From NCBI RefSeq assembly GCF_003334765.1, contig NZ_QOWT01000003.1: 64,000 bases of DNA; one strand, 5' to 3'. The stretch comes from Escherichia coli. Lineage in GTDB: Bacteria > Pseudomonadota > Gammaproteobacteria > Enterobacterales > Enterobacteriaceae. The translations under genes and the position numbers were made by a program. Under the pieces are notes generated by a model, which saw only the letters and a program-made list of their open reading frames with translations, was not told the DNA's origin and ran no database searches. The first letter of the stretch is position 1. Every line of letters begins with the position of its first letter. Below, piece by piece: positions 55,282 through 56,129 of this stretch.

Positions 55282-55830
55282 TTACCACTCCCAGACTTTC
55301 GACGGTGTAACCACCGCAGGAAGAGGGATATCCCACTCTTCAACGGGGAGTTTTTCCACCAACTGACAATCATGCGCATAACCCACCGGTTGCGTTTTAT
55401 AGTGCTGCCAGTTTTGTAAGGTCCGATCATAAAAACCACCGCCCATTCCCAGGCGCTGACCGTACTCATCAAAGGCGACCAGCGGTGTGATCAGCACGTC
55501 TAATCGGGAAAGGGGTAGCACGTCACGCACATCCAATTTTGGCTCATGGATCTTCAACCTGTTCATCACCAGTTCGCTTTGCGGATGGTAATTCAGGAAC
55601 AGCAAATTACCGGCACTAAAGGGATGCAAAACTGGAAGATATACGCGCTTACCGGCGCGCCAGAGTTGTTCTATGAGTGGCTGGGTGTCGAGTTCGCCAT
55701 CAAAAGAGAGGAATACAGCGACCGTATGTGCCATCACCACCGGGGGATAAGTCATCATCCGGGTAGCGGCTTGTTGACCCATTTCCTGCTGTTGTTCCGG
55801 CGTTAACGCACGACGACGTTGCCGAATCAT
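55282..55830 (-). CDS. fau: 5-formyltetrahydrofolate cyclo-ligase (182 aa)
   Basis: MIRQRRRALTPEQQQEMGQQAATRMMTYPPVVMAHTVAVFLSFDGELDTQ...; ORF track extends it to 248 aa across ssrS, which is rejected. Confidence 0.88.
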   Translation of the reverse strand: MIRQRRRALTPEQQQEMGQQAATRMMTYPPVVMAHTVAVFLSFDGELDTQPLIEQLWRAGKRVYLPVLHPFSAGNLLFLNYHPQSELVMNRLKIHEPKLDVRDVLPLSRLDVLITPLVAFDEYGQRLGMGGGFYDRTLQNWQHYKTQPVGYAHDCQLVEKLPVEEWDIPLPAVVTPSKVWEW

Positions 55831-55902
55831 TTTGCGGATTTCTTGTCGGGATAATGTCAGTGGGAGTTCTGGTAGTTGCGTCATGGCTGGTGCCAGATAA
55901 GA

Positions 55903-56088
55903 AGGGAATCTCCGAGATGCCGCCGCAGGCTGTAACCCTTGAACCCTTGGTTCAAGGTGAATGTGTCGTCGCAGTTTTAAGGCTTCTCGGACGGACCGAG
56001 CATGCTCACCAACCGCGGAGCGCCACATTCTTGTGGTATGAAATATCGGCTCAGGGGACTGGCCCGCTTGCGAACATCTCAGAGAAAT
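55903..56088 (-). ncRNA. ssrS: 6S RNA (about 184 nt)
   Basis: minus strand reads ATTTCTCTGAGATGTTCGCAAGCGGGCCAGTCCCCTGAGCCGATATTTCATACCACAAGAATGTGGCGCTCCGCGGTTGGTGAGCATGCTCGGTCCGTCCGAGAAGCC... = 6S RNA; directly downstream of zapA. Confidence 0.93.
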
Positions 56089-56129
56089 TTTGTCTTCACG
56101 GTTACTCTACCACAGTAAACCGAAAAGTG

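What the first reader, a model, noticed from the sequence alone, without database searches (positions are those of the whole stretch)
55282..56090. 6S RNA is swallowed by an over-extended ORF call for fau
The 248-aa ORF 55282..56028 runs through most of the ssrS (6S RNA) sequence, which is recognisable base-for-base on the minus strand at about 55903-56088. The genuine fau/ygfA protein begins at MIRQRRRALTPEQQQ (55830), so the upstream 66 codons are a non-coding read-through of a structured RNA. This is a clean example of how ORF tracks mis-annotate the zapA-ssrS-fau operon.
Basis: partly seen in the sequence, partly recalled or inferred. Interest (0 to 1): 0.25.

Follow-up and report, generated by a model that had tools for sequence, protein, structure and literature searches.

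The report
6S RNA gene upstream of fau

Summary
A full-length 6S RNA (Rfam RF00013, 139.8 bits, E 1.7e-29) lies at 55905..56088 (-). The mechanical 248-aa ORF 55282..56028 (-) overlaps 124 of its 184 nt. The window is E. coli; the locus is zapA-ssrS-fau-sibC/ibsC-serA.

The ORF extension into 6S is non-coding: in 68 related species the 6S 3' half is read in all three frames relative to fau, and the extension is open only in Escherichia. But the true fau start is most likely ATG 55884 (MTQLPEL..., 200 aa), not ATG 55830 (MIRQRRR..., 182 aa).
- The Pfam and TIGRFAM domains begin 6 residues upstream of 55830.
- Arg13 and Arg17 of the 200-aa form are invariant in 68 species, with synonymous codon variation. 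Arg17 is present in 129 of 131 distant family representatives.
- The 55830 codon is ATG in only 14 of 68 species and never GTG or TTG in the rest, whereas an upstream ATG is present in all 68.

So about 48 codons, not 66, are spurious. RefSeq PGAP already uses 55884. K-12 MG1655 and UniProt use 55830. Some GenBank records carry the 248-aa call. This is a known locus of low interest, with a small curation point.

The parts
55905..56088 (-). ssrS, 6S RNA (184 nt; K-12 annotates 183 nt, equivalent to 55906..56088)
   Evidence: Rfam RF00013 full-length match, 139.8 bits, E 1.7e-29. Annotated ssrS in identical RefSeq and K-12 records.
55282..56028 (-). Mechanical 248-aa ORF (longest ATG-to-stop frame); not a real gene model
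   Evidence: the ORF listing. The same 248-aa sequence is deposited in GenBank records.
55885..56028 (-). Spurious 48-codon 5' extension of the ORF: 124 nt of 6S RNA plus the 20-nt spacer
   Evidence: The frame relative to fau is not conserved: spacer length mod 3 is 19/26/23 among 68 loci with a located 6S. The 6S 3' half translates in three different frames in different genera. The extension is open only in Escherichia.
55282..55884 (-). fau (ygfA), 5-formyltetrahydrofolate cyclo-ligase; most probable CDS, 200 aa plus stop
   Evidence: RefSeq PGAP CDS WP_000192748.1. NF007661 446 bits, TIGR02727 180 bits, PF01812 E 1.7e-47. An ATG is conserved 7-15 codons upstream of the invariant Arg in all 68 species.
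55831..55884 (-). First 18 codons of fau (MTQLPELPLTLSRQEIRK).
   Evidence: Arg13 is 68/68, encoded by 5 codons. Arg17 is 68/68, encoded by 3 codons. Third-position entropy dominates, as in codons 19-26. Arg17 is present in 129 of 131 family representatives. PDB homologues align from residue 12-14.
55828..55830 (-).
   Evidence: This codon is ATG in only 14 of 68 species, otherwise CTG, TTA, CTA, GTT, ATC, CAC and others, never GTG or TTG. Not conserved family-wide.
55885..55904 (-). 20-nt pyrimidine-rich spacer between the 6S 3' end and the fau ATG; no Shine-Dalgarno
   Evidence: Sequence CTTCTTATCTGGCACCAGCC. Anti-SD duplex -1.5 kcal/mol, against -7.8 for zapA and -5.8 for serA. The spacer is 12-24 nt in most related species.
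56104..56133 (-). Sigma-70-like promoter (ATGACA-18 nt-TAGAGT, with TG) just upstream of the 6S 5' end, overlapping the zapA stop codon
   Evidence: Consensus scan only. Its position fits the proximal ssrS promoter known from the literature (from memory, not verified here).
56130..56459 (-). zapA, the upstream gene on the same strand
   Evidence: ORF. Annotated zapA in identical records.

Best explanation
The region is the standard E. coli ssrS-fau unit. ssrS (55905..56088, minus strand) makes 6S RNA, the abundant structured RNA that binds sigma-70 RNA polymerase. On the same transcript, 20 nt after the 6S 3' end, begins fau (ygfA), which encodes 5-formyltetrahydrofolate cyclo-ligase. In Escherichia the fau frame happens to stay open back into the 6S gene as far as an ATG at 56028. 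A longest-ORF rule therefore yields a 248-aa product whose first 48 codons are not translated sequence. The real initiation codon is most probably ATG 55884, giving a 200-aa protein (MTQLPELPLTLSRQEIRKMIRQ...). Its first helix carries the family-invariant Arg17 and the Arg/Lys at position 13. ATG 55830 (Met19) is an internal methionine that occurs in only some lineages. Shown: the identity and limits of 6S; the domain limits; the conservation patterns; the lack of frame conservation upstream of 55884. Inferred: actual initiation at 55884 in E. coli, and that the 182-aa form would be functionally impaired.
For: 6S: RF00013 full length, 139.8 bits. 14 related loci carry 6S 12-125 nt upstream of the conserved ATG. 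fau domain: PF01812 model 1-186 matches ORF residues 61-242. TIGR02727 matches 61-242. NF007661 (198 positions) matches 52-248. PDB homologues 2jcb, 1ydm, 1sou and human 3hxt align from residue 12-14 of the 200-aa form. Comparative DNA from 68 species: an in-frame ATG lies 7-15 codons upstream of the invariant Arg in every locus. The Met19 codon is ATG in 14 of 68 and is never another canonical start in the rest. Spacer length between 6S and the ATG is 0/1/2 mod 3 in 19/26/23 loci with a located 6S. The 248-aa extension is open only in the 5 Escherichia species. Codons 13-18: Arg13 68/68 with codons CGA, CGG, AGA, CGC and CGT; Gln14 66/68; Ile16 64/68; Arg17 68/68. Summed entropy per codon position is 5.07/2.17/9.41, like codons 19-26 at 3.03/2.28/11.54. 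Among 131 full-length representatives at 50% identity or less to one another, Arg17 is present in 129, Arg/Lys13 in 105, and position 19 is mostly Q/T/H/A/L. Indels in the N-terminal tail are in frame (198, 200, 201 and 209 aa forms). RefSeq PGAP annotates 55884. ssrS-ygfA co-transcription is documented (PMC2848244; PMC3299989).
Against: The curated K-12 MG1655 record (NP_417387.3) and UniProt 5FCL_ECOLI start at 55830. I could not find why, and the curators may hold evidence I could not reach. No experimental start-site data (N-terminal peptide, initiation-arrested ribosome profiling) could be retrieved. Neither ATG has a Shine-Dalgarno sequence (-1.5 and -0.7 kcal/mol), so ribosome-binding-site strength does not decide between them. 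The first 11 residues (MTQLPELPLTL) are poorly conserved in sequence. E. coli, Salmonella and some Citrobacter do carry the Met19 ATG, so some initiation there is possible. N-termini in the protein libraries are gene-caller predictions.
Confidence: 0.85

Rival explanations
1. The first reader's model, which is also the K-12 reference annotation: fau starts at ATG 55830 (182 aa), and everything upstream, including 55831..55884, is untranslated leader.
For: The NC_000913.3 b2912 CDS equals 55830..55282. UniProt 5FCL_ECOLI is 182 aa, and this exact sequence is seen on 571 contigs. ATG 55830 is present in Escherichia, Salmonella and some Citrobacter and Pseudocitrobacter.
Against: It would remove family-invariant Arg17 and Arg/Lys13 and the first six positions of PF01812 and TIGR02727. 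Codons 13-18 show amino-acid conservation with synonymous variation, which a leader would not. 54 of 68 species have no start codon at that position. It has no better Shine-Dalgarno than 55884.
Confidence: 0.08
2. Both ATGs are used in E. coli, giving a 200-aa enzyme and a shorter 182-aa isoform.
For: Both ATGs exist in frame and both lack a Shine-Dalgarno. Rho-dependent termination and 6S 3' processing occur in this same stretch (PMC3299989), so 5'-truncated mRNAs lacking 55884 are conceivable.
Against: Met19 is not conserved (14 of 68 species), so any short isoform cannot be an ancestral feature. The short form would lack the invariant Arg17. There is no direct evidence either way.
Confidence: 0.1
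3. The 248-aa ORF is genuine: part of 6S RNA is also translated as an N-terminal extension of Fau (a dual-function RNA).
For: The frame is open for 74 codons upstream of 55884 in five Escherichia species, with an ATG at 56028. Several GenBank records annotate it.
Against: In other genera the nearly identical 6S sequence (91-98% identity) lies in a different frame relative to fau, or is interrupted by stops. No protein family model covers residues 1-48. There is no Shine-Dalgarno at 56028. That ATG lies inside the RNA, which the Rfam alignment and the predicted fold show as heavily base-paired.
Confidence: 0.01

Closest known systems
E. coli K-12 ssrS (6S RNA, b2911) with downstream fau/ygfA (b2912)
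   Same: The region is 100% identical to complete E. coli chromosomes and is found in all 5426 complete E. coli genomes searched, including K-12. It has the same neighbours as K-12: ygfB, zapA, ssrS, fau, sibC/ibsC, serA. It is the same locus.
   Different: Nothing in the DNA. Only the annotated fau start differs between sources: K-12 and UniProt use 55830 (182 aa), RefSeq PGAP uses 55884 (200 aa), and some GenBank submissions use 56028 (248 aa).
5-formyltetrahydrofolate cyclo-ligase / MTHFS family (PF01812; TIGR02727; solved structures 2jcb, 1ydm, 1sou, human 3hxt)
   Same: Full-length domain match. The N-terminal helix motif (K/R)-x-x-(L/I)-R aligns with residues 13-17 of the 200-aa form.
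   Different: The E. coli protein has a 12-residue poorly conserved N-terminal tail before the motif. Relatives have 0-80 residues before it, typically 3-16.
Conserved ssrS-ygfA linkage in gamma-proteobacteria (6S RNA lying in the 5' leader of ygfA)
   Same: 6S lies immediately upstream of the cyclo-ligase gene on the same strand in 14 of 15 representative loci scanned with Rfam, including Pasteurellaceae. The linkage is described in PMC4064990 and PMC2848244.
   Different: None. No 6S reached the Rfam gathering threshold in the Colwellia locus L062.

Membership tests
6S RNA (Rfam RF00013) | Full-length covariance-model match above the curated gathering score | tested here: met
   139.8 bits against 46.4, model positions 1-187 of 187, E 1.7e-29
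6S RNA (Rfam RF00013) | Extended, largely double-stranded rod closed by pairing of the 5' and 3' ends, with a central open region | tested here: met
   The CM alignment shows the terminal and internal helices paired with only two non-canonical pairs flagged. The MFE fold of 55790..56097 pairs the 6S 5' and 3' ends, z = -4.13 against shuffles.
6S RNA (Rfam RF00013) | Genomic context: directly upstream of, and co-oriented with, a 5-formyl-THF cyclo-ligase gene (typical of gamma-proteobacteria) | tested here: met
   fau begins 20 nt downstream. The arrangement is the same in 14 related loci.
6S RNA (Rfam RF00013) | Binds sigma-70 RNA polymerase holoenzyme and templates pRNA synthesis | not testable with these tools
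   Established for the identical E. coli RNA in the literature (e.g. PMC3299989); not a computation.
5-formyltetrahydrofolate cyclo-ligase (PF01812 / TIGR02727 / NF007661) | Profile match above the curated cut-offs | tested here: met
   NF007661 446.2 bits (cut-off 343). TIGR02727 179.6 bits (cut-off 84.9). PF01812 E 1.7e-47.
5-formyltetrahydrofolate cyclo-ligase (PF01812 / TIGR02727 / NF007661) | The CDS includes the N-terminal (K/R)xx(L/I)R motif (invariant Arg) | tested here: met
Met for the 55884 start: Arg13 and Arg17 are present. Arg17 is in 129 of 131 representatives and 68 of 68 species.
5-formyltetrahydrofolate cyclo-ligase (PF01812 / TIGR02727 / NF007661) | ATP-dependent conversion of 5-formyl-THF to 5,10-methenyl-THF | not testable with these tools
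   Needs an enzyme assay.
Genuine N-terminally extended Fau (248 aa) | Reading frame and start codon conserved in relatives | tested here: not met
   The extension is open only in the 5 Escherichia species. The 6S 3' half is read in three frames across genera, and spacer length mod 3 is evenly spread.

The most novel reading that the evidence does not exclude
The reference K-12/UniProt model of Fau (182 aa) is truncated by 18 residues and lacks a family-invariant arginine. The true AUG sits only 20 nt from the mature 6S 3' end, in a C-rich, Shine-Dalgarno-less stretch (C 26, G 10 over the 74 nt 55831..55904). In that case 6S 3' maturation, Rho-dependent termination and fau translation initiation would compete for the same roughly 75 nt of RNA and set the 6S:Fau output ratio.
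Probability: 0.3. Interest if true: 0.3.

Novelty: already known. Interest (0 to 1): 0.13.

Why it matters
The practical value is for curation. Three different fau gene models circulate for identical DNA: 248, 200 and 182 aa. The longest swallows two thirds of a well-known regulatory RNA. The shortest is the one in the K-12 reference genome and UniProt, and it probably removes an invariant arginine from the enzyme's first helix. Anyone cloning or modelling E. coli Fau from the reference entry may be working with a truncated protein. Biologically nothing new is revealed: the ssrS-fau arrangement and its co-transcription have been known for decades.

Tried and rejected
1. Experimental evidence for the fau start was looked for and not found.
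- The Rho-termination paper on ssrS-ygfA (Chae et al. 2011) and the YgfA biochemistry paper (Jeanguenin et al. 2010) are not held.
- The retapamulin ribosome-profiling preprint has no supplementary tables held.
- Full-text searches for ygfA with start-site terms gave nothing relevant.
- PMC3299989 mentions a ygfA start-site mutant (M2) but not which ATG was changed.

2. Literature confirmation that the residues aligning with Arg13 and Arg17 (human MTHFS Lys10 and Arg14) contact ATP was not found. That role rests on my memory only, so I rely on conservation instead.

3. Shine-Dalgarno strength does not discriminate: all three ATGs score -0.7 to -1.5 kcal/mol.

4. Folding the 6S-leader transcript confirms the 6S rod but says nothing decisive about start-codon accessibility.

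5. The stop-codon count between the conserved ATG and Met19 (frame 0: 0 of 68 loci; other frames: 64 and 50 of 68) is partly true by construction, because the ATG was searched only within the open frame. I give it little weight.

6. I considered and rejected a dual-function, translated 6S (see rivals).

Full report
**What is there.** On the minus strand the window reads zapA (56130..56459), a 41-nt gap, then a sequence matching the Rfam 6S/SsrS model over its full length at 55905..56088 (139.8 bits, gathering score 46.4, E 1.7e-29). After that comes a long frame ending at 55282. The stretch 55200..56500 is 100% identical to several E. coli chromosomes and is present in all 5426 complete E. coli genomes searched, always annotated zapA / ssrS / fau. 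The mechanical ORF list gives 55282..56028 (-), 248 aa, ATG start. It overlaps 6S by 124 of 184 nt.

**Three gene models for the same DNA.**
- RefSeq PGAP annotates ssrS at the equivalent of 55905..56088 and fau at 55884..55282 (200 aa, WP_000192748.1).
- The curated K-12 MG1655 record annotates ssrS as 183 nt and fau from the equivalent of 55830 (182 aa, NP_417387.3).
- An exact-sequence look-up shows all three versions are deposited. The 248-aa form carries real GenBank accessions (AJE57453.1, CBJ02606.1 and others) on at least 1000 contigs. The 200-aa form is also on at least 1000 contigs. The 182-aa form (UniProt 5FCL_ECOLI) is on 571 contigs.

**Where the protein family begins.**
- In the 248-aa ORF, Met49 is ATG 55884 and Met67 is ATG 55830.
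- Pfam PF01812 (model 1-186) and TIGR02727 (1-182) both begin at residue 61. The enterobacterial equivalog NF007661 (198 positions) covers residues 52-248.
- Solved homologues (B. anthracis 2jcb, B. subtilis 1ydm, 1sou, human 3hxt) align from residue 12-14 of the 200-aa form. In that alignment human Lys10 and Arg14 fall opposite Arg13 and Arg17.

**Comparative test.** One scan of species-representative genomes returned 68 loci, mostly Enterobacteriaceae plus Aggregatibacter, another Pasteurellaceae and Colwellia.
- *Upstream ATG.* An in-frame ATG lies 7-15 codons upstream of the conserved Arg in every locus, and exactly 10 codons upstream in 59 of the 70 loci tabulated (the 68 species plus two E. 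coli reference loci).
- *The 55830 codon.* It is ATG in only 14 of 68 species. In the other 54 it is CTG, TTA, CTA, GTT, CTC, ATC, CAC and others, never GTG or TTG.
Arg13 is 68/68 using five codons, Gln14 is 66/68, Ile16 is 64/68, and Arg17 is 68/68 using three codons. Variation is concentrated at third positions: entropy 5.07/2.17/9.41, compared with 3.03/2.28/11.54 for codons 19-26.
- *N-terminal tail.* Length differences are in frame. E. coli has an extra Leu-Thr relative to the 198-aa forms of E. albertii, E. fergusonii and Citrobacter.
- *Upstream of the conserved ATG the coding signal stops.* The 6S-to-ATG spacer is 12-24 nt in most species and about 100-125 nt in three. Its length is 0/1/2 mod 3 in 19/26/23 loci. 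The nearly identical 6S 3' half is translated as RRIHLEPRVQ..., TKGSRVTACGG... or NYDDTFTLNQG... in different genera.
- *6S end points.* These were confirmed with Rfam in 14 representative loci.
- *The 248-aa extension.* The frame is open as far as the 56028 ATG only in the five Escherichia species. The median open run upstream of the conserved ATG is 28 codons.

**Family-wide check.** A profile-free search of 1.84 billion cluster representatives gave 34,004 hits. Of the best 150, most align from query residues 7-16. In a MAFFT alignment of the 131 near-full-length ones, Arg17 is present in 129, as invariant as Arg24. Position 13 is Arg or Lys in 105. Position 19 is Gln, Thr, His, Ala, Leu and others, with Met not among the six commonest residues. 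The 182-aa model therefore starts two residues after an invariant family residue.

**Conclusion on the start.** The most probable start is ATG 55884, not 55830, so the figure of 66 non-coding codons is too high by 18. I put about 0.85 on 55884 being the main or only start. The caveats are these:
- The K-12 curators chose 55830 for reasons I could not retrieve.
- No experimental start-site data were reachable.
- None of the three ATGs has a Shine-Dalgarno sequence: -0.7 to -1.5 kcal/mol, against -7.8 for zapA and -5.8 for serA.
- E. coli does carry the Met19 ATG, so minor internal initiation cannot be excluded.

**How the unit works (established knowledge plus what is seen here).** 6S RNA and ygfA/fau are co-transcribed, and the linkage is conserved in gamma-proteobacteria (PMC2848244; PMC4064990). 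[quoted passage not shown] 2011). A sigma-70-like promoter with an extended -10 lies at 56133..56104, just upstream of the 6S 5' end (consensus match only). The 74 nt from the 6S 3' end to 55831 are C-rich and G-poor (C 26, G 10) and carry no Shine-Dalgarno. That fits weak translation and Rho access, but this link is my inference and was not tested.

**Novelty and interest.** The locus, the RNA, the enzyme family and the correct-looking 200-aa model (PGAP, NCBIfam) are all already known. What remains is a curation discrepancy in the K-12 reference and UniProt entry, and the persistence of 248-aa calls in GenBank. Interest is low.

Noticed in passing
window 55106..55256 (-), with a 19-codon ORF on the + strand at about 55142..55201: SibC antitoxin sRNA (Rfam RF00113, 133.8 bits), with the ibsC toxin ORF (MMRLVIILIVLLLISFSAY, read by eye from the sequence) antisense inside it, between fau and serA. 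This is a known type I toxin-antitoxin pair, annotated the same way in K-12.
   Followed up: partly
L071 1920..2371 (E. coli MEI1-1023); equivalent to the window gap between fau (55282) and serA (54893): Some E. coli strains carry two tandem ibs toxin genes between fau and serA: an extra unit of about 390 bp with an 'Ibs family toxin' plus ibsC. This window has one.
   Followed up: partly
window 55885..55904 (-) and the equivalent spacers in L003-L070: The fau ATG lies only 12-24 nt after the 6S 3' end in most of the 68 species, in a pyrimidine-rich stretch without a Shine-Dalgarno. Klebsiella spallanzanii (L032), an uncultured Klebsiella (L049) and Enterobacter sp. 10-1 (L036) instead have spacers of 99-125 nt. 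How fau is translated is unclear.
   Followed up: partly
window 56104..56133 (-): An extended -10 sigma-70-like promoter (ATGACA-18 nt-TAGAGT) overlaps the zapA stop codon, 16 nt upstream of the mature 6S 5' end. It probably corresponds to the proximal ssrS promoter. No terminator-like site was found between zapA and ssrS.
   Followed up: no
window 55841..55852 (-), fau codons 10-11: E. coli and its closest relatives have a two-codon in-frame insertion (Leu-Thr) in the variable N-terminal tail of Fau, compared with the 198-aa forms of E. albertii, E. fergusonii, Citrobacter and most Enterobacteriaceae.
   Followed up: partly
cluster 1 (protein P0015): A 200-aa E. coli-type Fau sequence is deposited under Staphylococcus aureus (WP_113608265.1). 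This is almost certainly a contaminated or mislabelled assembly.
   Followed up: no
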